A model generated the notes under the pieces. The model was given only the letters and a program-made list of their open reading frames with translations. It ran no database searches and had not been told where the DNA came from. A program made the position numbers and the translations under genes. Shown piece by piece: positions 4,739 to 62,256 of a stretch of DNA of 64,000 bases. Each line of letters opens with the position of its first letter. Position 1 is the first letter of the stretch. The stretch is from Paraspadella gotoi (Eukaryota; Animalia; Chaetognatha), in assembly GCA_051294375.1 (NCBI GenBank), contig CM119267.1:22011486-22075485 (forward strand). The letters are read 5' to 3'.

Positions 4739-40611
<35,873 letters not shown>

Positions 40612-41846: not shown

Positions 41847-42113
41847 ATGGCGCGCACGAAACAGACGGCGCGCAAGTCGACCGGCGGGAAGGCGCCGCGG
41901 AAGCAATTGGCGACGCAGGCGGCGCGAAAAGTGCAGACGGCGCCGGGCAAAGGGGGCGCGGGGTCTGCGGGCGCCTTCGCTGGATCCGAGGCGAGAGTAG
42001 ATTTGGAGTTTGCGGAGACGGACGACTCGTTCGAACCGATCGTCGAGACGGTGACGACGCCTTTGGACGCGGACGGGTTCCCGTTGGCGGCGCTGAGGGA
42101 GACGGTCGACCGG
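41847..42113 (+). CDS. Roco exon 1: histone H3 N-terminal tail mimic without histone fold
   Basis: [28 protein letters not shown] equals H3 residues 1-27 except K23Q; then unrelated sequence and a CGG|GTCAGT phase-0 donor. Confidence 0.9.
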
Positions 42114-44328
42114 GTCAGTTTTTATTTAACTAATTTTAATTATTCGAAATAGTTTTTTTTTTTTACTAGATTTAAGGAGGCGACTATTTGTGACATAAAA
42201 GCACGGTATTTAGAGGAGAAACTATAATATTGTGGCGAAACCTAAATTCGCCACCCGTATAGCCATTCGCTTGGACAGCTTACTAGTAACTACTCTTTCA
42301 CCAACCGTGAGTTCCGGGTTCAATCCCATCACGGTCATGCTGGTTAAAGTGAGATGGTGTCGGCATAAACACGCCAGTGACATGGGGTGGTCACTGCAGG
42401 TCCAAAGCCCTGAGCGCCAGCTGTCGGGAGATGCCTTACACCCCAGGCATCACCCATGTCCCCCCGTAGCCCAGCTAATTTTCAACAAAATAGACCCAAA
42501 AAAATAAAAGACGTCGTTAGTAAACATACCCTTGGTAGAAATGACTAATTAAAACTAGAAAAAGCCGCAATATGCAAATTAGATTAAAATCATCACTGCT
42601 GTCGTCGCAGGTCAAGGGCGAGACACTGACCAGCGTGACGTTCCACGGCGCCAACAACGTCACCGACGCCGTCCTCGTCGCCTTCGCCCGCATGGAACTC
42701 GACTTCTCCAAGCTCCGAACTTTCTCCTGCCGAGCGGCGCCGCGTCTAACGGATTTCGGCGTCGCGGCGCTCCTCAAATACTCTGACATGAAGTCGGCGC
42801 GAGAGCTGAGAACGCTGGATTTCGGAGGCTGTCTCCGCTTGACGAACGAGTCGGTCAAATTCGCCGCCGCCTTCTTCGCCGCCCTCGACTTCCAATGTCA
42901 ATTAAAGTTCGACATGACGGCGGCGTTGGCGGACGGAACGTTGGGAGCGTCGCACGCGGGTTGCGCTACGCTGCCGTCCCTCGACGACGGCGCCGCTCCA
43001 ACGAAGCGTTCTCCGCGCAGGCGCACACTCTTTGTCTGTCCGCACGCGTCTGTCGAGACCTCTCTCTCGTGGCGTCTCGTCTTCGGAAATGACGCGACCG
43101 CCTTTCGCGTCGGCGTCGACGTTGTGGCGCACGATTGGATCGTCAAGCCGGATTTGAAAGTCAAGGTGGGAATAAATTAATAAATACATAAATAATTAGG
43201 TAAATAATAAATAAAGAAGTAATCAAATATGTAAATGGATAAAAATATAATATATAAAATATAAATATGAATGAATGAATGAATGAATGAATGAATGAAT
43301 GAATGAATGAATGAATGAATGAATGAATGTATATCCCCCTCTCCTCCCAAGATTGTCGAGGCCGACTTGGGTGGCGTCTTTCTCGACGTCACGTCTCCGC
43401 GTCACGTCTCTCACGTCGTCGTCGCCGCGGACCTTCGACGCTTGGAGAATCTCGAGACGCTCGTCCGCCACGCCAACCAGTGCGTCGCTTTCTTCGTCGA
43501 CAAGGTGCGTAAAACAGTGGCAATGATGATGGAGACGGAATCGTGAAGAGGAATGATAAAGTAAAGGCATTGGAGTTTTTACAAGTGGTTAAGTTTCGAC
43601 GATTTCTTTATATTTCTTAACAATTTCTTAATCCCCCTAGATAACAAATTATGTAGGGAGAATTAATAGGGAGTGGTCCTGCCATGGACTCTGGGAGAGA
43701 AAAAAACGAGACTTTGAGAGAGTCTTGATTGAAAGCGTGCCAGGCCATGTTATTATCTTGTCAAAGTCAAGGGCAAGATAGCAGATACGAAGCCTTTTTC
43801 TTTCATAACTTGAAACGATTTGTATACAAACGGTTAACTACTTTTGACCGAAATATAAACAACGCAATTCCTCAATAAAATGGTTTCCCCCATTTTTTTC
43901 CCGCCAGCTCTCAATCCCTCGAGCGGCCATCTTGAATCCCGGATTCGGCGACGCCGCCGACGCCCCCACGAAGCGCTACTTCGAGAGCGGCATCGGCACC
44001 AACGCCGCCTGGCGCAACGACGGCGTCCTCGAGTTCCAAGTCGGCCCCACGGTCTTGGCCGCACGTGAAATCGGCCCCATGGCCAACTTCACGTCCTGCG
44101 ATCCGCTGGTCGAGAATCACCCGGAGTTCGAGTTGATCGTCGAGGGGAGTCAAGGCGAGAAGGTCGACGTCTACTTCTCGTTATTGGTGGAACCCTGGGA
44201 ACAAATGTCGAGTCTCGTCGACTTCGCTTTATACGACGTTCGGCCCAACGAGAAAGTCGGCATCGGGCTGGAGGGCGTGGGGGAGTCATGGTGAGAGAGA
44301 CAGAGAGACAGGCATGAGAGAGAGAGGG

Positions 44329-44611: not shown

Positions 44612-47600
44612 TGAAAGCATCGAAAAATCATTTTCTCCACTTGATTCATTTTATTCTCAGGCCCTCGCCCTTCGCAACGGGACAATAATTAAAAGCCAAA
44701 GAATTCAGGGTCAAGTTGGTTGGGGTCTTTTCGCGCGTTGCGAGATGGAAACGCCAAACCCCTGCGTCATCCCCGCCCACGTCGTTAACGCCGACGCCCC
44801 CTTCGGCGAAACCAACAAGTTCCACAGATTGAGACGCATCGAAGTTGGCTACACGAAATTGGCCAAGTTGCCCGACGAATCCTTCTCGCTCAACTCGTGG
44901 CGCCGCTCGACCAACAAAGACTTCTCCGCGACGAGCCGCTGGGTGCTTGGGGCGCACCTGTTGTTCGCGCGGACGGCGACCTTGGATCAGATAGAGAACG
45001 AGCTTCACAGCGTCTTGAAGGAGACTCAGCTGAGGCAGTTGATCCAGCGTCTAGACGTTTCCACGGTAACGACGGACGTCGCGACCCTGGTGGCCGAAAA
45101 GTTCTCGACTCACGACATCAACGATCAAAGCAGCTCGAAGGTAGGGCCTCTGGTCAATGCCCTCTACACCATCGCTGATGGCGTCGTCCAGTTGCTGTTA
45201 AGTCGGACTGCGGACGAAGAATGCGCTTACCTGAGAACGTTTTTCGATCGGCCTTACTATTCCGAGCCGCAGGCGAGATTTCGGAGGATCAGCTCGCATC
45301 AAACGCTAACTATGGACGGCGTCGTCGGCGTTACTAAGGACGCCGGTCTCGATCGAAAGGACGATGCCGGCGAATTCGGCTTCATCGATCGCGGCGCCCT
45401 GACTCCGAGATTTAATGGATTCGAGGCGCGAGTGGAAAAGGTGGGAAATTCTCTAGAATCTGGCGCGTTCGTGATGGGACTCAGTCGCCCGATGCGATCC
45501 AAGGGGCCCACTATTTTCGAGTACAACGCCGCCACCGGGGAAGTAACGATCAACGGCGTCGTCATGGACACCGTCGCTAAAGACGGAGTCCGCAAAGTTA
45601 CCTGCAATTCGATCAACGACGTCGTCTCCATCTACATCGAAGGAGCGGAAGGCAACAAAGTCGTCCTTTGCAAAAACTTCAAGCAAATATTTTCCGCCGA
45701 TTTGGAAATGAAGTGTTTTCCCAAGTCCAAAGGGATCGGCGCCGTCGTGCCTTACCTTTCCGTTCAAAATTCCGCCTTTCAAGTTCGTCTCCTCAACTAC
45801 CTCACGTCCGGATTTTCATCGACTTTGGTCGGTCGCACCAAAGGTCGCCAGATGCGCGTCGACTCCGCGACCGGAACCGTCGTCAATGAGAACGAGGGCT
45901 CGGGCGTCTACGTGAGCGACAAACCTTTATCTGAATGGAATCATACTTTTTCCTTTCACTTAAATTCGATAGAGGGCGTCAAAGTTGGACTAGTGCCACG
46001 CCCATTGATCGACGTGGAAGAGGATGGATCCTTTAGAGTTTCGATTAAAGACGCCGTGGCTGACGCCGGCTCCGCTGCTGCTGGCGCCGCTGATTCGGGC
46101 TCTCCACACTCGACGAAAAGCAGAAAGATAGAATTTAGTCTCGACTTAGAATCGCTTAATCATTGGGACTTTGTCAACGACGGCCGCGTGCGATTCGATG
46201 TCGATTTACCCTTGAAACTGAGCGTCGAGGGCGAATCGAAAGTCAAAGATTTGACGTGGAATGTGGAAGAGTCTTGGGTCCGAAACGAGGTTCTTTATCC
46301 CGCCATCTTCGTAGACAAAAAGGGCATCGGATTTAGTCTCGATAAAACCGTTCAACGCTTCGATTCCAACGAGATTAACGAAAAGATTTCCTCGCCCTTC
46401 AGCGCCGTGTTGATCGCGGACGGCGGCGTCGCCCCGGAGAGGATCGACGAGGCTCGCCGCGCCATCAAGAAGGCGTTGGCCGAGTGGGGACCGGCGGAGA
46501 ACGACCTCGCCGGAGAGGATAGAATCGACGGCGAAGCGGATGACCCGCCCGAGGAACTTTTTCTTCAAGAGAAAAAAGGAAAGATGTTGGATCGATCGCT
46601 TAGGATCGAGTGGATAAGGAAGAAGCTGAAAAAGGTCGAAGTGTCGATCCTGATTTCGGACAAAGACTTGAAGGAAGTGAAGAAGACGTCGAATCACGAA
46701 TTTTGGAAAAACAACAACAGCAACGATCTCACGTTGAGCGGATTGAGGAAGCGGCTCACCGCTGCCATGGACGGAGATTTCTCACAGACGGAGACCTTGA
46801 AGATCCTCGACAAACTCTGGGGACGATTGGATGAGAACGACCTCGACAAAAAGGTGCTGCAAAAGGCGGGAGTCAAAATCGAGCGGGCGGACAAACTAAT
46901 CCAACGGTTCGTCGATGATTTTCAATTCTCCCGCCGCGTGGGATTTCAACTCCTTCGTCACCTCCACGACCGCGGCAGGGTGATCCTCTTCGAAAACCTC
47001 GACCCCCCGAGCGTCGTCCTGGACGTCCAGTGGTTCGCCGGATTCCTCTCGGCGGCCTACTCGGCGCCGACGACCTACTCGGCCAATCCGGCCATCCCTT
47101 TTCTTTCCAGCGTTCCCGTCTTCAACAAATCAAACGAATTCTCTCGAGTCGATCTCCTCAAATCGCTCAAACTGGTCGTCGACGTCCCTCACCTCCGCCA
47201 AGTCGGACGAGATATTCCGCGCTTCACTGGCGTAAACCTCCACGCCCTGGAGGCGGACGAGGAGGCGTTGAAGGCGTTCCTTGCGCCTTACCCGGGTAAG
47301 TACGAGGCGCGGGCGACGTTCGGGCCGCAGGGCGCGGCGTCGGATAGGTGTCCAGTTCCGCCGACGTTTTGGTTCAAACTATTCGCCGTCTCCTTGGCGA
47401 CGGCCAAATTGGTCCACGCCTCAAAAGGCGGCGTCGTCGTGCGGCGCGGCTGCGTCGACGCCGTCGTTCGTCGCGACGACGCCGACTGCGTCGTCCTCGT
47501 CGTCCACACCTTCGTCGCGGACGACGTCGTCGCCGCGTTCGAGTCGGCCGTCGACGTTGGGGCGCACTTGTTGACTCTTTCGCCAGTCATGCAGGTTGGA

Positions 47601-48560
47601 ATAGGGGGGGTGCTAAAACGTTGTAAAAAATTGAAGCGAATTATTGTGTTCTTTAATCAAATTTGCGTATTGCAGTTACCATTTTTTTGTTTGAAAAAAT
47701 AATTTTAAGTTATGTTAACATTTTAAATTTAAAAGTAAAATATCGAATGAGATCTGTTTTTTTGTTTTCTTATTTTGGCATCTCCTTTTCTTTTTAGTTA
47801 TACATAGGTTGTAAAGAAAACTTTTCCTTTTAGTATTTTTCTTCTAATATTTTCGACTTGGAACTGTTATTTAAGTGTTTGAAATGTTTGAAAAAAATTA
47901 TTCTCATAATGCTATCCCTTTTATTTATACCGCACCTTTCTGAGTAATTATTATTAATTTATTACATTTATCATATATTTATTAAAAATAAACTGGCCAT
48001 TAATTATTATTGTACTGAGCATAAAGTTTATAAACTGAAAAAGGCTTCGCGTCGATTCTAAAAACAAATACATTATTAACCCCCCCCCCCAACCGCCAAC
48101 TCTGCCTTCACAGGCATTCTGGTCCGTCTTCGCCTCTCAATCCGAGACGATCGAGAGCCTCCTCGTGGAATGCGGCGTCTTCGACTTCCAACGCCTCGTC
48201 AACTCCTCGCGCCCGCCACCTCGCGGCCTCTTCGGCTTTTCCCGCATCCACTCGTGGACGCCGCGCCCCGGCGACGACGCCGACGTCTTCGTCTGCAGCC
48301 ACGGCGTCCACTGCGCCGCCGAGGGAGCCGTCTGCAAGCACGCCGTATTGACGCGCGTCGATGGAGGACGATGCGAGTGCGACGCCGAGCATGGCGCCCG
48401 CGCCCTCGTCTGTCGAGACTGCGGAATTTGTAGGCGATTCTGCGCGCCTCTGGTGGCGAAGATGCAAACGAGGCTACGGCCTGCGAATGTCGTCGGCGTC
48501 GAAACGAATCTCAAATTTATGTTCCGCGCTCATGATCGTAAGGAAGAAGAGAGAGAGAGG

Positions 48561-48607
<47 letters not shown>

Positions 48608-51600
48608 AAAGCAGTGTGATGTGATTTTTTTTCGTGGTTATTCATTTGTTTAAAATCACAAATTCACATCGCATCCAAATATTAAATCCTTTTAGTTCCG
48701 GCGACATTTCACTTGACTTTGATGGATTTCGCGATAGACACCGCAGGTGCGAACTTGTTGAAGATTTTGTAGTTGATATTGTTTTGGGGCGACTTACCAT
48801 AGGCCTTACCCATTGTTACTCTCCCTCCTCTAGCTTTTTTCCCTCAAATTGTTTTCCATTTTGTCAAGGTTGCGATCAAGTAACGTATCACGCGGCAAAC
48901 GTCGGCCAACAAGAAGCCAGTGTCGAACTCTGGTTGATCAATCAAAACGATACCAGGTGACTAAAAAAATTGTTTTCTTGTTAACGATATATATTCAATT
49001 AACAACTTACTCAATCTTTTCTATTTCACCCTCAGATCCCCAATCCGCGTTCTCCCCCCTTCCCCGGTTCTCTGTCCCCATCTACCCCTTGCCCTCCGCC
49101 TTTCTCGACTGCAGCAAGGGGCCGGAGAAGTCGACGGCCTTACGCTCGATCCGGGCAGCGGAGTTTCTGCGGAGATCCGCTTGAGGCGCGCGGGTGCTAG
49201 GGTCGAGGGCATCAAAAAGACAAATGCGCAATGGGGGAAGAGGTTAAAGAAAGAGTACGAGGAGGAAGTGCAAGGAGACGAGATTAGGGGTGAGAGATTA
49301 TGAAAAACCAATTTTTAAAAAAAATTACAGTAGAAATACGTATATAAAATATATATTTATAAAGTTATAAACATACATGCATGCATACATACATGCATTC
49401 CCTTTGTTCAATTTCGCCGCATAGTTTTTAAATTGATTACATGAAATTGGCACAACCAATAAAAAGATTATTCATTTATTTAAATAATAAGCTATCTTGC
49501 CCCTGACATTGGACTTGCAATGTTGGGTTTTTGGCCTCTTACATTTTACAAGATGATAGTATAGCAGGACTTTGCAAACATTAAATCGAGACTCTCACAC
49601 AGTCGAGTTTATTTACTCCAATTCTGGCTAAACTTAATTCTACCTTGTAATATGTTTTAAAATTCAACTTCCCCCGCCAAACCGTCCCAAGGCGCCTGGC
49701 CCCTCTCCGCCCACAGCCCCGGTTTCATTGTCCGCGTACTTGGCATCGACGCTCCCTCCAAACCGATCAACGGTCAGGAGATGTCACTCGGAGTCTCCAA
49801 CTCGCCCGTCGACGCCGAAATCTTTGGCGAAGGCGGCGCCGTTCGCGAAACGCTGGACAAGCTCGTCGTCTCGCTGGAGGAAGTGTATCCGGAAGCGTTG
49901 AAAGCCGGCGACGAGATCGAGTTTCGACTGCTCGGAGGCGGCGTAGGCGGCGTAGGCGGCGGCGGAGACAGGAACAATGACGACGTGGAATACGACGAAA
50001 CCCTTTATTACTTAGCTGAGGTGAATCCGACTTTTTGTATTGAGATAATTAGCGAGGGAGAAATTAAAATTAATCATGCGATCTAAACATCATGATGATA
50101 AAATATTAACTTCATTATACATTTTTTTATTAATTTTTATTGTTTTAATTAATTTTTATTGTTTTGATTAATTATTAATTTTTAATTTTTGATTTTTACG
50201 TTCGGAGCTGTTGGCTTACTTGTCTCCATTCCCTGAATTAAAACCAATTAATTAAAATAACGATTTCACTTTTATAATTTTTTTGCTAATCGTTAACCTG
50301 GGGAGACGTGACTAATTCGTCGATTGTCATCAACCTTTAAGGTCTCCGTCAACCGCGATATCGTAGAGACGCGGCGCGCCCTCAAGTCGGTCGTCGACGC
50401 CGCGGCGCCTCTCGGTCTCTTCCCCTGGATCGACGCCCCGCGCGATTTGACGCTGAGGATGTCGCGGTTGCGCCTCGACTCCGCCCAACGCCTCGTCGAC
50501 ATCGAGGAGGCCTTCGAGCTCGACGCCGAGATCGAGGGGGAGGTAAGGGGAATGGTGAATGTTGATTCGGGACGTTGGGGAGTGTATAATATAGATGTAT
50601 AATTTGTATATATGTATAGATGTATATATGTATAGATGTATATATAGATTTAATATTTAATACATTTATTTTCAAGATTTTGTTCGTTCAAGAATGATAT
50701 CCGATCGATTCTTAGCTTATGATCTTCACTCTCATTTTCATATCGCAGCACTAGGCAACTTGTACCTTTAATTTAAAAAATACTGAGAACAGTCTTTTTT
50801 ATGGGAAGCATTTTCAAACAAACAATACAAGGCTAGAGAAAACCCAACCCGAGAAAAGACGTCAACAATTTAGACTTGTATTCTCACACAACTCCAGACA
50901 ATGATAACGTCACGTTACCTAGGCTAAAATGTAATGATAAAACGTCACATAATGAATTCACACCATTTGCGCAACAGCCGATTCTCAGGCTCCTAATGCG
51001 GGCCTTTTAAATTCTGACGATCAATAACTAATCTTCACAATTCACAAAGAAATAACTTTCTTAAACCTTACCCCATCAAACCCCGCAGGAGGACGGGCGG
51101 ATTACGGGCATCGACGAGATTGTCGGCGTCTTCGATCCCTCGCCCTCGATCCAAGTGGAGATGTCGCTCGTCGTCGACGGCGTCGAGACGGACCTCGTGG
51201 GTGTGCCCGATGCTGAGTACAAACTCCTCGTCGTGAAGACAGATGCGAAGGTCGCAAAGGGGGGTGTGAAGGAAGGGAAAAGATGACCAATTGACCACAA
51301 TGACCAGTCAATCAATTTAACATATCAATTTATCAAATGGATCGATCTTCAGATCGAAGACTTCATCTCAGCCGATGGGGCCGTCGTTCCATCCCCGCCT
51401 CCCAAGGAAGACGCCGTCAAACTCCGCCTTTCGAAACCCATCGTCAACAGTTTCCACTTTCCGAGATTCGAGGCTGTCGACGACGAAAACGACGACGAAG
51501 ATAAAAACGAAGACGACGACGTCAAAAACGACGCCCACATCCAGAGTGACATCTTCAGCGTCCCTCGAGTCCTCTCCCCACGACATCCCCGCGGCTGCAT

Positions 51601-54600
51601 CGTCGCCCCGCTCTCCACTGAGACCCTCCGCCGATGCCTGTGGGAACTCCAGAACGAGACTCTCGAGGACGCGAAGCTATTGAATCATTCGCGACCGAAG
51701 AGAATTCCTCTTCCCTTTTCGATCCTCGTACCGGATTCCATCGGTCGACCGCCGACGTTGTCGAAGGTTTGATTTGGAAAAAGTTTCTAAAAAAGAGTTA
51801 AATACAAAAGCTCTTTTATATAAATTACTTACAGCTTAACTCCATAATTATCCCACATGTTCTCCCCCTTTTATTTGTCCTTATTAAGTTATTACTAATA
51901 ACAAATTTTTGTTGTATAAATTTATTTTTTTAATAAATTTTATCCGAAATTTGGAATGAAGTTATCTTTTAAGCTCTTAAGGGGACTAGGTTAGGAATTA
52001 TGGTAATAAATATGAAAAAAAATTAAGGTTAAATTAAGTTTACGGATTAAAGAACATAATTAAAACGCTTTCGGAAATTAATGCCCGACCATCGAGCAAT
52101 AAATAAATTACATTTTTCCCTCCACCAAATCAGGCGTTCACATTATCGTCCTTGCAATGGCATCTTCTCTGTCGTTTCCACATAGAGGACGCCGACGAAG
52201 ACGACGCCGCCATTTCCCGCTTGTCCAGCTTCCACCTGGCGGCCGAACCGCCCGTCGAACGACCCGATCTCGTCGACAAGAGCGTCTTTCTCGACGGGAA
52301 GCTCCGGACGATCTTCGTGTCGATGTGGAAGGCGATGGTGACGCTGCCGTCGGGAGGAGGAGGAGGAGGAGGAGGAGGAGGAGAAGAAGAAGAAGAAAAG
52401 GGAGGAAAAGAGAAAACTGAAGATGGTAAATGAAATTGATTGGAAAAGACTATATTCCATTTTTGAATATAAAACAATAGTAGTTAAAATGTTTCCATTT
52501 TATTTTTAAAATCTTAATTTATTTTGCTTAGTAAAATCATACCTACAATATGCAAACGAGATTCCAAATGAGATTCCTTTTTTAAAAATAAATAATATAT
52601 TGAGGCGTTTTCTACAAAATATCTTTTACTATCAATTAAATTTTATTAAACTTATTTTATGAAATATTAACAATAGGAAACGGGGATGACTCCTCTTCCT
52701 CCTCTTCCTCCATTTCCGTCTACACAAAAGAACAATTGGTCACCGACGCCTTGGAAATTTACGCCATCTGCCTCACGCTGGCGGACGTCGGTCGCGAGAG
52801 CGTGGAGGGCGTCTCGGAAGAAATCCCCTTCTTCCTCTGTCATGCCCACGAGTTGTTGAAGAGACGGTGAGGTGGTTAGATGGACGGATGTATCAATGGA
52901 TGGATGGATGAATGGAGTTATTGAACTATTTATGAATAAATGGATGAAGTTATAGAAGAGTTAATGAATGGGTTGATGAATGAAGGAAACGATTGAACAA
53001 TTGATGAATGGATGTATGTTAAATATTTTAGTTCTAAAAAATGAATGAATGAAATTTTGAAGTTGTCGTAAGCCTTCACCAATTTAAATAAACTAATATC
53101 AACATAACATTAAATAAAAACAAATCCTTCTCCCCATCTTCACCCAATCCAGACCCTCCGAAGGTGACGTGGACTTCTCCACTTTATCTCCTTACCAACG
53201 CAGCATCTTCGATCTCAACCTCTCGCCGGCGATGACCAAATCTCTGCCCGCCTCCGACTCCCAGGATCAACGGACCGAGTCTCTGGAAGCGGCCAAGCGG
53301 GAAGCGGCCGAGCGGGGCGACTCCAAACGGGTCGAGTTGCTCAAGAAAGATCTCCTCCGGGAGCACGTTGCGGCGGCGGAGCGGGCCTTCTTCCACGCCT
53401 TCCCCAATTTGCTTCGGATTCGCCTGGAGTTGGGCGCGGGCGGCGGCGAGGTGCCGCCCTTGAAGGCCCAGTTCTGCCCCATTCTCCGATCCTTCGCGGT
53501 TGCAGGGACCAATGAGGCGAACGACTTGGCAGAGTTTGACCTCAAGTTTTGGTACAACTCGTTCAATCCCGCGGAGACGGGGAAACTCAGCAAGATCCGC
53601 CGATTCGGCGTGACCAATCTGCCTCTGCAAAACGCCGACAACGACCACCTCACCAGCTGCATCGGGCTGACAAAGTTGGACCTTTCCAACTGCAAACTTT
53701 CCTTGCTGCCAGAAAGTCTCGGAAACTTGATAAAATTGGAATGGCTCGACGTCTCGGAGAATCCTCTGATGAAGCTTCCGGACAACTTGTCGAAATTGAG
53801 TCGGCTGAAGACGTTGAAGATCTCGGGTCTGCCGCAGATCGTGATGACGGGATCCTGTACCAAAGAGGCCTTCATGAAGTTTGTCCGCTCCTTCGCGATG
53901 ACCAAAGGGGTCTCGGTGGAATCGGCCGTGGAACTCTTCGAAGAGACCGACCTGGACAAGAACGGCGTCCTCAGTTTCTCTGAGATTGCCAAACTCAACG
54001 CTAAGATGTTCTTCGCCTTCCAAAGACTCGGTCTCGACAAGCGACCCGCCGACGCCCTCGGGGGTTTTCCTGCGCAAATTTTCTCGCTGACTAACCTGGA
54101 ACACCTCGACCTCTCCTTCCAAGGGATGTTCCGCGTTCCCCCAGAGATCTCTCGCCTGGTCAACCTCAAGAAGCTTGTACTAAAGCACTGCTCTCGCCTT
54201 CAAGAAGTCTCGCCAGAAGCTGGGGCCTTGACTAAGCTCGAGCAACTAGACCTGCGTCATTGTCCCAACCTGAAGACTCCTCCCCAAGAGGTCGTGTCCA
54301 AAGGCTTTAAATCCGTCTACGCCTACCTCAAACGACTCCAGGGATCCTTCGTGACCTGCCGTCGCACTAAACTCATGCTCGTCGGGACGGGCGGCGCGGG
54401 CAAGACGTCGTTGCTTCGGGCGTTGATGAGTCCGACTCGATCGACGGCGGGCACCGACAGAGAGAACATCACCGACGGGATCGACATTCATCGATGGGAG
54501 ATCGAAGCCAAAGACGGATCAAAGATTCAGTACAGCGCTTGGGACTTTGCAGGCCAAACTGTCTATTACAACACCCACCAATACTTTCTGACCAAGCGAG

Positions 54601-57600
54601 CCGTCTATTTGCTGCTGTGGACGACGCGGATCGGGTTCGAGCACGCCGGGCTGGACTTTTGGCTCAGCTCGATCGCCTGCCACGCCCCCAAGACGCCTGT
54701 GTTCGTCGTGGGCACTCATTGCGACAAGGTCAGCAAGACGGACTTGCCTCGGCAGGATCTCAAGACACGATATCCTCAGATCGTCGGATTCCATTTCGTC
54801 TCCAGCATCACTGGACTCGGGATCCAGCGGCTCCTCGACTCGATCACCGCTGAGACCCTCAAGCAGAAGTACATGGGAGAACAGATCCCGCGGGTGTATC
54901 TGGATTTGGAGGAAAGGCTCGTCAAGTCGCGTCTGAAGAGGAAGACCGTGGACTGGGAGACGGTCAAGGCGTTGGGTAACGAGGTAATGAGGACTTTAGG
55001 AGTGAAAGCCGTAAGTGGAATTTGTGTGTATTTACTTTTAAATTGAATTTTTATGAGCATTATGTTCAGTGGCAAAATGATATCCCTCGAGCCGGATTCG
55101 AACCAGCGACCTAAGGATATCTGCTGCGTTCCTACTACAGTCCTCCGCTCTACCAACTGAGCTATCAAGGGATTGCTATGAAAGGCGAAATTGGAAATTC
55201 CAATTCAATTCTAACCTATCTTATTATTATAATAATTAAAGTTAAAAATTTCTCATTTTTAAATAAGCGAATGAAAAAACTTTAAAATATGTAAGTTGTC
55301 GTCGCTGTCATCGTCGTCGTCGTAGTGGTCGTCCCCATTCTCCTCGAAAAGAGAAACGAAGATCTCGTCACACTGCCGCCAGCTGAAAATTTTTTCCTAT
55401 ACTTGCTATAGCGGACAGAACAAATGCAGCTTCCCATGTGGTCTAGTGGTTAGGATTCGGCGCTTTCACCGCCGCGGCCGGGGTTCGATTCCCCGCATGG
55501 GAGAATTTTTTTCATCCGAAAATAAATATTTTACATTTTACTATATATGTAATGATTATTTTCTAAAAAATTTCGACAGAAAATTTTATTTGTAATCCTC
55601 AACGAAAATAGTAAATTTATAGATTGTCAGGAATGGGATTCGAACCCACGCTCACATATGTGAACTGCGACCTGAACGCAGCGCCTTAGACCGCTCGGCC
55701 ATCCTGACACGGCTGTCAAGAAACAATGGATAATGGGATGATTTGAACTAGAGTTCCGGATAACGTGTAATTTTTTAGGAAATTCGCTTAACCGTTAAAA
55801 CTAACATTTTTTAACGGTTAACGTTAAGATCGTTAATTTTATAATTCAACTTTAAATTTAAAATATTAAGATTTAAAACAAATAAAGTATTTAATGGTAT
55901 TTTCTCTTTAACTCTGACTCTTGAATGCGCTGATAAAGACTTGAAACAGAGTCGAAACATGTCTATTTTTTATGTCAAATAAAATTGTTGTTGTAACAAA
56001 ACAAATATTTTTGCTAATCTCATAACACAACGAAACGAAAGGATACCATCAAATTCTAATTCTATATTTTGTTTTCTCTTTCTCTCTTTTGCTTTCTCTT
56101 TTTCTTCTCTACTTCTTCTATTCCCCATATTTTTTTTAGTTGTTAGTTTCTTAAACGCTTGTTTTCTGTTGTTAATCTTTCATAAACTATGACCAATGGT
56201 CATTGACCATAAATATAAATATGATTTTAATTTATTGATAGACTGGTTGATTTATCGATTGATCAAAATATTTATTGATTAATAAATATATTTTTTAGTT
56301 TAGTTAAAAAGTATATCATCATTATTCTTTTTTATATATCTTTTTTAAGATTCGTTCCTTCTATTTTTAATTTTTAAATTTTTTAAAATAATTTTTTTAT
56401 TTTGTTTTTATTCATTTTTTTCATTCATTCGGTTTTATTTCATTTGCTTCTTTGTTAATTTTAAAGAGGGAAAGAAAAAGAGAGAAAAAGTAAAATAAGA
56501 GGGATTATTTATTTTTAGCTAAATTGAATACATATTATTGCATGAAAGGGCAAAAAAAGGAAAAAGGTAAAAGCAAAGGGCGAAAAAAGGAGAAAAAGAA
56601 AGGAGAAAGAAAAAGGGGAAAAGTGAGAATGAAAAAGAAAGGAACAGGAGGAGATAAATAAAGGGGAAGAATGAATGTGGCGAATTCACGGAATCGCCAA
56701 CTTCCTTCAGACGGCGTTAAAGGCGTGAAGAATTCTTCGCGGCGTCGCGGGCTGCAACAGTTCGTCAGAACCACTTGGTTCTATAAAAATGTTCTAGAAC
56801 AAAGTTCTTGATTTGTTCACGGTTAAAATTGGTACCTTAATAAAATAATCAAAGCATATAGAATATTCTATATGCGTTAAAAAGCAATGGCAATAACAAG
56901 CAATAATATTAATCAATAAATATCAATAATAACAATTATTAAACGTTAACAAGGAAATAAATATTAACATTATGGAGATGTTGATCCACTTGGTAAAGAA
57001 GATTCTTTGTGAGTGAATAAAGAATAACATTGGTAAGGTTCTAAAAGAGGAACCATAAAACTTATGCTAGTGTACTCTAGCATCAATATAGTAAACATAA
57101 TGTTCTTTTGTTTTAACATGATTAAGTTTATATTTAGGGTAAGAATGGAATATCTATTTGATAAGTACCGAAGTGGTGAAAACCATAATGCATAGTTGCT
57201 GATTGAAAGGTCCCGGGATCGAATCGGGAAATCATTATTTTGCTTATTGATTTAAAGTGTTTATAATTATATATAAAACTTTGAAGACGAGTTTGTTTAT
57301 AATTGAAAATAGGCCTTCACTCTTGCTGAGCTGCTTTGGAAGGCGAAGAAGACGGGATCGAATCCCACATGAATAAGAGAGAGATGAGGATAGAAAAAAA
57401 AGGAGAAAATAACAAAGGAAAAAAGCAGGGAAAAATTGGAGAAGAGAGAGAGGGGTAAAAATATGGTGAGAAGGAGAGAGGAGAATAAGAGAGAACAGAA
57501 AAAAATAGTTTTTTTTTTTTAAATTTAAAGATTTCATACCAAAAAATGAAAAAAATCACATTTGAAAATTAACCGAATTTAACCGTTAAAATGAATATAT

Positions 57601-60518
57601 TAACGGTTAAGTTAAAATTATTTTTAACCGTTAATAACCGTTAACAGTTAACGGTTATCGGAACACTAATTTGAACCCAATTGAAATAGGAGATGAAAAT
57701 TTAAAAAATTTAAATGTTAATGTCTTAATCTTAAATCTCAGATCTTAAATCCAGGTGGGCGTGTCCGAGGAGAAGGACCTCAAAGACGCCGTCTCCTTCC
57801 TTCACGATCTCGGCTCCGTCCAATACTTCGACACTGAGTTCCTGCGCAACGTCCTCGTCGCCGACCCGCAGTGGATCGTCGACGTCATGGCCTGCGTCGT
57901 CTCGGTCAAGGATTCGCCCGTCCGCGAAGGGCGACTTCGTCACGAGGACATCCGAGTCGTCTGGAAGGACTTTCCCTCGGAGCTGCACGAGTGGCTCCTG
58001 CGGCTGACGGAAGAGTTCGACCTTACTTTTAGGTGAGAAGGATGTTAGGAAAGGCACTTTCGACGGCCGCACCCTAATCGTCGTGTGACCCTTATGCTTT
58101 GTCTCAGAATCCGAAGAGGTCCCGAGTTCTAACCTCAGTAAGGAAGTTCTTTGAAAAGAGAAATTCGCTATATTCACTGCAGATTTGTAAATAGACCGAT
58201 CAGAAACTATAGTTTTTAATCTCTTTTGGATCTGTGTGTCTATTGGTGGACCATACTATGTTAAATATATATATGTAGGAGACAATATCGCGGACAATCT
58301 GCATACCGCATAGCCGACAACATTTACCCTCCAACATATAGTATTATTAGTAAATAGAATTTATTAGGGAAAAAGATTTATACTATCCATTGAGAAACAA
58401 ACAAAAGCGCATCTTCAAAGAGGAGGAAAAAGAGAAAGAAGAAAATTTTTTTTAAAACAAAATCTCCCAAAAATTATTCATTATTAACTAATTAATAATA
58501 ATAAAAATCAGAGCCGTGACTTAAGACTCAGTCGGAGACTGGATCTCGTTTAATATTTACATACATCCTTTATATTTCGTACCCCGCCCCCCTCCAACCC
58601 CCCAATTAAGAGATCCCGAGCGGGCATTGAGTGTGATTCCCTGCATGCTGCCCGAACGGCCGCCCGACAATCTGGATGAAGAGTGGAGGAAAAACCTTGA
58701 GTCGGGCGTCGCTTCCGGCGTCGAGGGAAGGATCGCCTACGAATTCTCTTATCTCCCCGCGGGACTTTTTAATCGGACGCAGGTTATTGATCCTAAGAGG
58801 AATTCGGTTATGAGGGTAATTAAACAAAATTTGCTTGACCCGTCGTGCGAATTGCGAGTATTTTTGTGAAAACAAATGAATGAATTAAATAGATGAATAA
58901 ATAAATAAACCAGGTTGATCCCAGCTGGTTAAATAACAGAAGGAGCAGAGATATTGAAAAAGAGAGAGCGCGATCCTGGTTATGTGCCTCCTTCAAAGAC
59001 TCCGAACTTACCGATGTGACATTCATAGTGATTAATATTCATTGTGTATTTATAATTGATTCATTACTTGTTCCCTTTCCGTTAAGAGAGCATCGTGTCT
59101 CGGGTCTCGTGCTTCCCAGGCCCGGCCGGCGCCCGCCGGCATCGCCAACAACAATCCACCTCTAAATAAATCAATCAATCAATCAATCAATCCGTAAATG
59201 AATCAGGGAACGAATGAAACGATTTCCCCTCCCACTTTCACGCAAAGGTCCGTCTCTTCCAACTCAGCAGCAACTCCATGATCTGGAAGTCGGGATCTCT
59301 CCTTCACAAGAACGGACATCGCGCCCTTATGCGGCAGACCTCCTCTCGCCATCTCTCCGTCAAAGTCTTGGGTCCGCAGCCGGAAAACCTCATCCTCATT
59401 GTTCACGAGGTGATTGATTTTTGTGGTTGTGTCTTTGTCAAGCTGAATTTTTCGCGGCCTCCAGAATAAAAAACAAACAAGCGTTTATGACTTTGTGACT
59501 TTGTGACTTTTTCACTACCTGGCGAACTAATTTTAGATTCTCGCGCATTAAAATACTTGAAGTCAATGAATAAATAATAATATGTAACACGCATCACGTA
59601 ATTCGTAAATAAAATCTTGCTTTGATATCGTTGAGTAAAAATCCACTTCGGTAATTTTGAGTTTTTTTTTTTTTTTTTTTTTTTTGACAAAATATTTTTG
59701 CATAACATTTAACATTTAACAAAATAAGGGAATTTTGTCCCTTTAAAAGGATGGTAGTTTGGCGTCAGTCACTTGATAACTTCACCGAAGTTTTCTAAGT
59801 CGTCATGTTTTACTTTTTGTCTTCAAATTTGAAGACACAAAATCTCTGGATCTCATTTTCTCCCACCTTCAGGTCGTTGAAGGACTCGTGGAGGAATCCT
59901 TCTCGGGAATCCGGTACGAGTACAGCCTTCCATGTCCCGAGTGTCGGCGGACGGGGACTTACGATCCGGACATGATCAATTCCGCCCTCGTGCAAAAGGT
60001 GATGATGATGATGACGATGATGATAATGATGATGTAAATATCTTGACAGACGGCAGACTTAATTATTATTTTGGTGATATTAATTATAGTGATGAAACTG
60101 ATGATGATGTCGAAAACGGGGTTGATGCTTGCTTGCATGACAAAGTTTTTTTATCATTTAAATTTACAACGCTACTCTATCCATTTTACATTTTCTACTA
60201 ACGCCCATTCATTCTTATCCCAACAGGCTGTCGACTTTCGCGCCCCCTTCATTCAATGCCGCAAATACTTTCACACTCTGTCCATGGCGGAGATCAAAGG
60301 AGCGATGCCGACTTCGTCTGGATCGGAGTTCGACGCCCAGTTGGAGCGAACCGTCGACGAGTTGCAAGATCGGCACAAGGTCAGTTCGTCTTGAACTGGG
60401 GAGAGTTTTCGTGAAAGCGTCGAATATGAATGGGGCAGTTGGTAAAAAGTTTTTGTTTGTCTCGAATAGTGACATAATTTATTGCAAAATTCCTACGCCT
60501 ACCGACCCTACAGTTTAG

Positions 60519-60580
<62 letters not shown>

Positions 60581-62204
60581 TTCTGTCTCCCCCCTACCTC
60601 TCATAACAGAACCTCCAATACGACGTATACATCTCCCTCTGCACGGCGGACGGAAAGGATCGTCCGGAGGGGTCGCTGGATCCGGTGAGGTTGAGAGACG
60701 ACGTCGTCGCCGCAGGATTCACAGTTTACTTACCCGAGGAGAGCGACGCCGACGACGTTGAGAAAGAGATGATCATGATAAAGAATTGCAAGGTAAGGGC
60801 GAATTTAAGTAGAGTACCAAAATTTCATTTGCATATTGGGGTAAGCATATTAGATTGTTTTTAATTAATAACTTGACAAGGGTGAGGTCTCTCTTCCTAC
60901 ATTTCTTAAACTAACTTTAAAACTGATTTTTCCAGGTTCATTTTTCGTCTAACAGTTTTTACGCGTCGGGCCTAATGAAATGCATATAGTTAATAATATT
61001 TAGAAATCAGAAATGTATGTAGTGAGGCGGTGAAAAAGTGATAATTTTTTTTTCGCGCGTACTTGGCGGCGATATATGCCCCGAACGTACATAGCCAAAG
61101 GTTAACTATTATCTGCAGCTAAAAAACTTTAGTATCTTTATCTTTAGTATCTATCACAGTATCTTCTTTTGTAGCTTAATGTCATTGTACATACTATTTA
61201 TCATTTTATCTATTTACTTATCTATCTACCTATCGATCTAAATATCTATCTATTCTAATTTATCTATTATGGCAACAGCCGGGTTGCCTGTGATGCCCAT
61301 TGGGATGGGGCATCTCACTGTTGGCTTTGGGGGCTTCCGACCCTCAGTGACGCATCCAGTCACTGGCGCAGTTACCCTAGGACGGTCTCGCTTTGCCAAC
61401 GCAGAGGGAAGTCGTGAGGACTGTAGATGGAACACAACGCCTGGGGTGGTGTGTTCCCAATGGTATTGGTTAAACGACGGTGGACGTGAGGCGGTGTGAA
61501 TATACCGCCACACTATATCAATTTATCCATTTAACTATTCATCAATCTATCTATAAATCATTTTATCTATCTATATATCAATCAACCTATCTATCCCTCA
61601 GGTCTTCCTATTCCTCGCCTCCGACTCTTACGCCGCCGAGGATCGATGCCTCAAACTCTTCACTTTCGCCAAGAAGTTTCTCTCGAAGCCGCTGATGGTC
61701 GTGTTGGCGGCAAAGCGAGACCTCCTAGGATAACCGCGCCAGTGACTGGAACGTCATTGAGGGTCGGAAGCCCCAAAGCTAACAATGAGATGCCCCATCC
61801 CAACGGGCATCACAGGCAACCCGGCTGTTGCCATACACTAATCTTAATCTTTTTTCACATCCTTAACCTAATCACTAAACCAAATCCTTATAATTAATCC
61901 TAATAAGTAACCTAATTCTTTAACTAGGTATAAAGTTAGAACGCAAATAGGGTGCTTTTGAAAAATATCGCCCAAAAAAACCTTTGCGACGGCGTCGGCG
62001 CTGTTGTACCAACAATAACTGACGAAGCACTTGGGCGCGACCTCCGCCGCTCCACCTGACCCTTCCGCTCCTTTAGTCTTCAGCGTCAGCTGCTCCTTTA
62101 AATCGATCAATTTTTCGTCGTAGAGATTTTCGTTTCTATGAAATAATAAATTTTATAATAAATAATTTTCAGATTAAGAAGATTTTAATCATCACCAACT
62201 CTCT

Positions 62205-62256
<52 letters not shown>

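What the first reader, a model, noticed from the sequence alone, without database searches (positions are those of the whole stretch)
41847..42113. Histone H3 tail fused to the N-terminus of a giant LRR-ROC-COR-TIR protein
Seen: the first coding exon encodes [27 protein letters not shown] right after the initiator Met. It matches H3 at 26 of 27 residues, keeping K4, R8, K9, S10, T11, K14, K18 and K27 and a free N-terminal Ala after Met removal. It then diverges with no histone fold and splices in phase 0 into an LRR exon (42611) of a Roco gene. Known: short histone mimics exist (influenza NS1 ARSK, G9a automethylation site), and plant NLRs use integrated decoy domains. Inference: this may be an innate-immune-like receptor using an H3 tail as integrated decoy or sensor for chromatin-modifying or clipping enzymes, or as a PTM-regulated nuclear-targeting module, coupled to a GTPase switch and TIR output. 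I know of no described Roco protein with this architecture.
Basis: partly seen in the sequence, partly recalled or inferred. Interest (0 to 1): 0.92.

Follow-up and report, generated by a model that had tools for sequence, protein, structure and literature searches.

The report
Recurrent histone-H3 tail on Roco-TIR receptors
An animal gene for a predicted giant immune-type signalling protein begins with an almost exact copy of the histone H3 tail, spliced to the next exon in a public sequence run, and three related gene models in two clams and a worm begin the same way, likely by separate captures, so the tail likely serves as bait for enzymes that attack or read histones.

Summary
Confirmed and strengthened. 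41847-42113 encodes H3 residues 1-27 (26/27, K23Q) from the initiator Met, with no histone fold. A public contig joins exon 1 to exon 2. The last 12 codons of exon 1 already belong to the conserved N-terminal LRR cap of an unstudied animal Roco-TIR family. A 22-exon GT-AG model runs 3201 codons without a stop to the first TIR; only its first junction has RNA-type support. New here: 3 of 74 family members with an intact N-terminus (Mercenaria, Ylistrum, Owenia gene models) also start with ARTKQTAR; one clade is rejected (AU p=1.5e-5), so probably at least three captures. Residues 1-8 are invariant, K9 is not. The family also carries MBT, SPRY, PLAT or Rho-like add-ons, an invariant TIR glutamate and mostly a CaaX-like end. 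Best reading: integrated bait on a membrane-anchored GTPase-TIR sensor (0.45); rivals are a host docking or basic tag, and promoter capture. Function is untested. The scan earlier noted H3-tail fusions to other proteins (giant-virus ankyrins, a flagellate orphan), not to a Roco protein.

The parts
41847..41930 (+). Initiator Met plus histone H3 tail residues 1-27 (K23Q)
   Evidence: covered without difference by an X1 contig
41931..42077 (+). Decaying H3 28-35 likeness, then Gly/Ala-rich and acidic linker
42078..42113 (+). Start of the family's conserved N-terminal LRR cap (model aa 78-89), end of exon 1
   Evidence: subfamily HMM aligns model aa 78-413 across exons 1-4, E 4e-17
42114..42610 (+). 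Intron 1 (GT-AG, phase 0), with a dispersed repeat at about 42290-42470
42611..43165 (+). Exon 2: N-terminal LRR module
   Evidence: family HMM E 5e-7; spliced contig
43352..44276 (+). Exons 3 (43352-43504) and 4 (43908-44276; weak phase-0 donor, a stronger-looking donor at 44291 is out of phase)
   Evidence: unnamed homologue P0123 aligns across exons 3-5 in one stretch, E 1e-74
44661..47594 (+). Exon 5: likely SPRY-like beta domains, then a degenerate COR-like region
   Evidence: SPRY only as a lead (Atlas scores 0.83 for P0123)
48114..48537 (+). Exon 6: Cys-rich module shared with the family
48696..52866 (+). Exons 7-15, predicted from splice sites and frame only; little homology support
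53153..54983 (+). Exon 16: LRR, EF-hand-like insert, LRR, Roc GTPase (G1 and G3 motifs intact), start of COR
   Evidence: Pfam Roc E 4e-22
57755..60379 (+). Exons 17-21: COR-A and COR-B
60610..63751 (+). First TIR (60610-60792, continued in a duplicated exon at 61602 and 63574) and second TIR core with the Glu (63163-63308); order scrambled around assembly gaps, linker exon on the minus strand at 62134-61982

Best explanation
The H3 tail is the true N-terminus of a predicted Roco-TIR protein of over 3200 residues and likely works as an integrated bait on an innate-immune-type sensor. Shown: the tail is coded from the initiator Met, is spliced to the family's LRR module, and the same first eight residues open three other family gene models in separate parts of the tree. 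Inferred steps: (1) the Met is removed, leaving the free Ala1-Arg2-Thr3-Lys4 end that H3K4-region enzymes and readers need; (2) the protein sits on a cytoplasmic membrane through the family's CaaX-like end; (3) an enzyme or binder aimed at histone H3, most plausibly a pathogen effector on its way to the nucleus or a nuclear protein out of place, binds, modifies or clips the tail; (4) this releases autoinhibition or clusters the protein, the Roc-COR GTPase switch changes state, and the second TIR, which keeps the catalytic-position Glu, cleaves NAD+ or makes a nucleotide signal leading to defence or cell death.
For: Splice contig; open model; tail grafted in the same exon as the family's LRR cap. 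Recurrence: 3 of 74 family proteins with an intact N-terminus start with ARTKQTAR, next-best match anywhere in the 295 other stored proteins is 5 of 8; composition chance at a fixed site 4e-11. Tree needs 4 changes; one clade rejected, AU p=1.5e-5, the two clams alone p=1e-117 (40-row subset). In both clams the H3 piece replaces the 70-100 residue N-terminus of close relatives. Residues 1-8 identical in all four while residue 9 onward decays differently. The Owenia protein has a second, internal H3 15-27-like piece (10 of 13, chance 2e-7 per protein) and a Rho-like GTPase at its N-terminus, a common toxin target (recalled). Family members swap add-on domains: MBT, SPRY, PLAT, C2, SH3/chromo-like. 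TIR2 Glu in 83 of 83 proteins where the motif was found, aligning weakly with the WCxDEL Glu of RPP1 and Cat1 (E 0.4-0.7). Pathogen enzymes that modify the H3 tail exist (PMC12937675, passages).
Against: No ligand, localisation or activity was tested. 35 of 74 intact N-termini in the family are K/R-rich anyway, so a basic peptide may be all that is needed. The three relatives are database gene models whose first exons I could not check. Window and Owenia may share one origin (p=0.42). No background rate for H3 5'-end captures could be measured (one search was too insensitive: it missed two known cases), and other notes of this scan show such captures on unrelated proteins. The best-known effector site K14 (RomA, PMC12937675) is kept in only 2 of the 4 tails at the same place. 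Only junction 1 has transcript support; the exon 4 donor is weak and exons 7-15 rest on prediction. The CaaX end and an intact TIR1-TIR2 join are not visible for this gene.
Confidence: 0.45

Rival explanations
1. The tail is a docking or location tag read by the host's own proteins in normal physiology, not bait: for example a basic membrane- or importin-binding segment, a site for PHD/MBT readers, or an Ala-start motif for BIR-domain (IAP/survivin-type) proteins after Thr3 phosphorylation (recalled).
For: 35 of 74 intact N-termini are K/R-rich. Human H3 N-terminal mimics bind host PHD and Tudor readers (PMC8166343, abstract and section 12). 29 of 136 family proteins carry an MBT-type motif that aligns best with the second MBT repeat of L3MBTL3/L3MBTL1, and Ylistrum and Owenia have both an MBT paralogue and an H3-tail paralogue.
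Against: A generic basic tag would not need eight exact H3 residues at the exact N-terminus; a housekeeping docking site would be expected in orthologues, yet the closest relatives of each clam protein lack it.
Confidence: 0.27
2. Promoter and start-codon capture: histone H3 genes are many and mobile, a 5' piece landed in front of the gene, supplied a promoter and ATG, and the peptide rides along in a tolerant disordered end.
For: The family's N-terminus is low-complexity and freely replaced. Tails are cut at different lengths. Earlier notes of this scan describe a young viral H3 promoter-plus-tail capture (e1-5328585, unchecked here).
Against: Four cases in one family of about 75, with residues 1-8 invariant and later residues decayed; a second internal H3 piece in Owenia supplies no promoter; third-codon bases in the window's tail (11 of 12 G at Ala/Thr/Pro/Ser) match the rest of exon 1 (18 of 23) rather than standing out, which fits an old capture but proves nothing without this genome's H3 genes.
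Confidence: 0.18
3. The fusion is partly an artefact: exon 1-4 form a separate or truncated gene here, and the relatives' H3 starts are gene-prediction joins.
For: Exon 4's best-looking donor is out of phase; the assembly has single-base deletions and scrambled order near gaps; no transcript cover beyond exon 2 in the stretches laid.
Against: A phase-0 donor exists; P0123 spans exons 3-5 and P0122 exons 5-6 as single ORFs; full-length relatives match exons 1-4, 5-6 and 16-22 in the same order; the exon 1-2 join is seen directly.
Confidence: 0.1

Closest known systems
Trichoplax ROCO TRIADDRAFT_57945 and its unstudied animal family (PMC4104024, section 5 part 1 and figure legend read; the protein is hit P0174)
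   Same: Ras-like region N-terminal of LRR-Roc-COR-TIR; same family by Roc-COR homology and tree
[quoted passage not shown]
   Same: Met-Ala-Arg-x-Lys start that should leave a free H3-like N-terminus
   Different: Those are 4-residue motifs on mostly nuclear proteins; this is a 27-residue gene capture on a predicted membrane-anchored GTPase-TIR protein, repeated in a family
Integrated-decoy NLRs of plants and N-terminal tripwire sensors such as NLRP1/CARD8 (recalled)
   Same: Lineage-specific add-on that copies a host target, on an LRR plus NTPase switch plus TIR scaffold
   Different: Switch is Roc-COR, not NB-ARC/NACHT; no effector is known; the add-on is a disordered histone tail
Brown-algal LRR-ROCO candidate immune receptors (PMC11378527, passages)
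   Same: Roco proteins proposed as diversified immune receptors
   Different: Simple LRR-Roc-COR, diversity by LRR exon shuffling; no TIR pair, no histone piece mentioned

Membership tests
ROCO proteins | Roc GTPase directly followed by COR | tested here: met
   Pfam Roc E 4e-22, COR-A E 6e-22; COR-B region by family HMM
ROCO proteins | Intact P-loop and switch II motifs; multidomain context with LRRs | tested here: met
   translation of exon 16, Pfam LRRs
ROCO proteins | GTP binding and hydrolysis | not testable with these tools
   needs assay
LRRK/DAPK kinases | Protein kinase domain | tested here: not met
   none in the 11 window exons scanned, nor in the 11 homologues scanned whole; database names calling them kinases are transferred labels; the window gene's C-terminus is not visible
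Histone H3 and variants | Histone fold after the tail | tested here: not met
H3 N-terminal mimicry proteins | iM-Z-R-X-K at the very N-terminus | tested here: met
   definition from PMC8166343 section 12
H3 N-terminal mimicry proteins | K4 methylation and binding by PHD/Tudor readers | not testable with these tools
   needs peptide assays
Integrated-decoy NLR | NB-ARC or NACHT switch | tested here: not met
   switch is Roc-COR; so it may work like one but is not one
Integrated-decoy NLR | Lineage-restricted add-on copying a host protein, gained more than once | tested here: met
   rests on three unverified gene models plus this gene
Integrated-decoy NLR | A pathogen effector acts on the add-on and triggers signalling | not testable with these tools
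   no effector known
Enzymatic TIR (NADase) | Catalytic-position Glu in helix C | tested here: inconclusive
   Glu in the window's second TIR and in 83 of 83 motif hits; alignment to solved TIR NADases is weak (E 0.4-0.8); the catalytic role of that Glu is recalled

The most novel reading that the evidence does not exclude
Invertebrates have a family of membrane-anchored Roco-TIR guard receptors that repeatedly capture the histone H3 tail (and other toxin or effector targets such as a Rho-like GTPase) as bait, detecting chromatin-attacking enzymes in the cytoplasm before they reach the nucleus, possibly with MBT-bearing paralogues reading the methylated bait and the TIR pair firing an NAD+-cleaving response. 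It would be the first animal sensor built to guard the histone code.
Probability: 0.27. Interest if true: 0.93.

Novelty: new variant of a known kind. Interest (0 to 1): 0.78.

Why it matters
Pathogens that rewrite histone marks are well known, but a host receptor that uses a histone tail as bait did not turn up in my searches. Repeated capture of the same eight residues on one receptor family points to selection and gives a sharp test (which proteins bind or modify A1-R8, and does that switch on the TIR). It also exposes a large, nearly unstudied animal Roco-TIR family (placozoan, molluscs, annelids, nemerteans, brachiopod, flatworm, rotifers, a nematode, hemichordates, amphioxus) with swappable add-on domains.

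Tried and rejected
No whole genome is held, so the genome's own H3 genes could not be compared. The run search listed one holder, X1, RNA by guess only. In X1 no cover was seen beyond 42765 in the stretch to 44295; that is no evidence either way. No other H3 transcript was laid on the tail at 85% likeness, but human-like records are filtered out, so this says nothing firm. Search with residues 1-40 of P0047 among proteins of 1313-4181 aa returned only itself from 381 candidates and missed P0065 and P0151, so it gives no background rate. 80 of 251 metagenome loci with a Roc relative were read: no Met-started H3 tail and no match to the gene's 5' exons, but none was shown to reach a family N-terminus. 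The one-clade test on all 137 rows did not finish; it was run on 40 rows, 97 left out, keeping the close relatives of the four tailed rows. The window's own second-TIR fragment (48 aa) found no TIR in the PDB. The ESM Atlas could not be searched with exon 1. Paper searches: roco+tir+histone h3 tail 0 papers; 2 of 6 terms among H3-tail-like/decoy/roco protein/integrated domain 0 papers; searches listed nothing on this fusion (listings only, except four papers read in part and two checked for terms). Subscription journals are mostly outside the library and supplements were not opened, so a domain-architecture table could still list these proteins. No complex was predicted: methylation cannot be modelled and an MBT-peptide pair would pass or fail by likeness to solved structures. 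Rejected: untranscribed pseudogene fragment; upstream exon replacing the start; fusion to the upstream gene (UNC80-like, own stop near 40606-40608).

Full report
Observation. The window is animal DNA with GC-rich exons and AT-rich introns. Positions 41847-42113 give 89 residues. The first 27 after Met match histone H3.2 at 26 places (K23Q), likeness fades near G34, and nothing of the histone fold follows. An in-frame TAA 18 bases before the ATG, with no AG between, fixes the start, so Met removal would leave H3's own Ala-Arg-Thr-Lys end (rule quoted in PMC8166343, section 12).

Transcript evidence. The only listed run, X1, is held as contigs and labelled RNA by guess. One contig matches 41845-42066 exactly. 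A second has 14 letters that fit nothing in the intron and then matches 42610-42765; those letters are 42099-42112, found once in the window, right before the donor. This is the exon 1-exon 2 splice, at depth about 2 and with a short side below the tool's 31-letter bar. The unique parts of intron 1 have no cover. No other junction was covered in the stretches laid.

One gene with the Roc domain. A model of 22 exons, all GT-AG, runs 3201 codons without a stop from 41847 to the first TIR at 60792. A profile of 34 full-length relatives hits exon 2, the end of exon 5, exon 6, the Roc exon, COR and TIR exons in order. A profile of 16 proteins of the nearest (SPRY-bearing) subfamily aligns in one stretch from the last 12 codons of exon 1 through exon 4 (E 4e-17), so the tail is grafted onto the family's own first module inside one exon. 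Unnamed homologues bridge exons 3-5 (P0123) and 5-6 (P0122) as single ORFs. Weak points: the phase-0 donor of exon 4 is weak and a better-looking donor 14 bases on is out of phase; exons 7-15 have little homology support; beyond 61.6 kb the assembly is scrambled, with a duplicated TIR exon showing four single-base deletions and an inverted block, so the C-terminus cannot be read.

The family. Searches with the Roc exon (221 hits, 120 listed) and with a clam relative (151 hits, 120 listed) gave 136 proteins with a full Roc-COR match, from a placozoan, molluscs, annelids, nemerteans, a brachiopod, a flatworm, rotifers, a nematode, hemichordates and amphioxus. Common plan: LRR cap, degenerate GTPase/COR-like region, Cys-rich module, variable add-ons (SPRY, MBT, SH3/chromo-like, PLAT, C2), LRR, EF-hand-like insert, Roc, COR, two TIRs. 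105 of 136 have Cys four from the end (CaaX-like; prenylation inferred), and the second TIR has Glu in 83 of 83 proteins where the motif pattern matched, at the place of the WCxDEL Glu of RPP1 and Cat1 in weak alignments. The Trichoplax member was noted for its extra Ras-like domain in PMC4104024; I found no functional study.

Recurrence. Of 74 family proteins with Met start and an N-terminal LRR module (73 by profile, P0065 added by eye), three start with ARTKQTAR: P0047 (Mercenaria, XP_053405100.1), P0065 (Ylistrum, XP_060062845.1) and P0151 (Owenia, CAH1772675.1). No other of the 295 stored proteins exceeds 5 of 8 anywhere. Tails differ in length: 27+ residues here, 16 in Mercenaria, about 10 in Ylistrum, 8 exact plus a decayed stretch in Owenia; position 9 is K, Q, R or A. 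On a 137-row Roc-COR tree the label needs four changes. On a 40-row subset one clade is rejected (AU p=1.5e-5), as is the clam pair alone, while a shared origin for the window and Owenia is not rejected (p=0.42). The simplest reading is three or four gains; an ancestral tail lost many times is not formally excluded. In both clams the H3 piece stands where close relatives have 70-100 other residues before the same poly-proline stretch. Owenia adds a Rho-like GTPase right after the tail and a second, internal piece like H3 15-27 (10 of 13; 2e-7 per protein). These three are database gene models that I could not check against DNA or RNA.

Mechanism. Lineage-restricted, repeated capture of a much-attacked host peptide on an LRR-NTPase-TIR scaffold is the pattern of integrated decoys (recalled). 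Keeping only residues 1-8 and the exact N-terminal position points to proteins that read the free end and the R2-T3-K4 region, not to K9, K14 or K27. I therefore favour bait on a membrane-anchored sensor whose Roc-COR switch controls a TIR NADase (0.45). All steps after the sequence are inferred. Against it: almost half the family (35 of 74) has a K/R-rich N-terminus anyway; host readers could use the tail in normal signalling, and 29 of 136 members carry an MBT motif most like the second repeat of L3MBTL proteins, with both kinds of paralogue present in Ylistrum and Owenia (0.27); H3 5' ends may simply be captured often as promoters (0.18), and I could not measure that background; a partly wrong gene model remains possible (0.10).

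Known or new. It is a ROCO protein and meets the sequence rule for an H3 N-terminal mimic; it is not a histone, not an LRRK-type kinase and not an NLR. Ten paper searches showed no report of an H3 tail on a Roco or TIR protein, within a library that lacks most subscription journals. Papers seen: PMC8166343 (abstract, section 12), PMC4104024 (passages, section 5 part 1), PMC8195603, PMC11378527, PMC12937675 (passages), PMC6321704 (term check, no hits). Earlier notes of this scan report H3-tail fusions to ankyrins in giant viruses and to an orphan protein in a flagellate, unchecked here; none on this family.

Verdict. Real, spliced at its first junction, and recurrent in a poorly known animal receptor family; function untested. 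New variant of a known kind; interest 0.78.

Noticed in passing
window about 9190-40608 (+): Upstream neighbour is an UNC80-like gene (Pfam UNC80_C at 9190-9555 and 28930-29328), ending about 1.2 kb before the H3-tail ATG.
   Followed up: partly
window 39004-39220; 55083-55708: tRNA genes inside introns: two tRNA-Asp in the UNC80-like gene; tRNA-Glu, tRNA-Leu and a third, longer tRNA at 55083-55171 (-) that only Rfam called, in the intron after the Roc exon.
   Followed up: no
window 61268-64000: Assembly trouble or haplotype mix: TIR exon present twice (one copy cut by a repeat that also lies inverted at 61268-61397, one with four single-base deletions), 62175-62486 is an inverted copy of 63678-64000, three N gaps.
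   Followed up: partly
P0151 (Owenia), residues 21-189 and 1395-1407: N-terminal Rho/Rac-like GTPase and a second internal H3 15-27-like segment in the same protein.
   Followed up: partly
29 of 136 family proteins, e.g. P0140, P0148, P0026: Single (or double) MBT repeat keeping the D/F/W/Y positions of the methyl-lysine pocket (pocket residues recalled; alignment); the Trichoplax member also has chromo/Tudor-like hits.
   Followed up: partly
N-termini of P0051, P0044, P0079, P0065: Poly-proline followed by a short motif resembling an actin-binding WH2/thymosin segment (recalled likeness, seen).
   Followed up: no
window 42290-42470: High-copy dispersed repeat in intron 1, matched by many X1 contigs at depth in the thousands; no second copy in the window.
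   Followed up: no
L020-L080 (most rows): One metagenome assembly holds dozens of contigs with divergent AT-rich Roc-COR genes, a large Roco expansion in some eukaryote.
   Followed up: no
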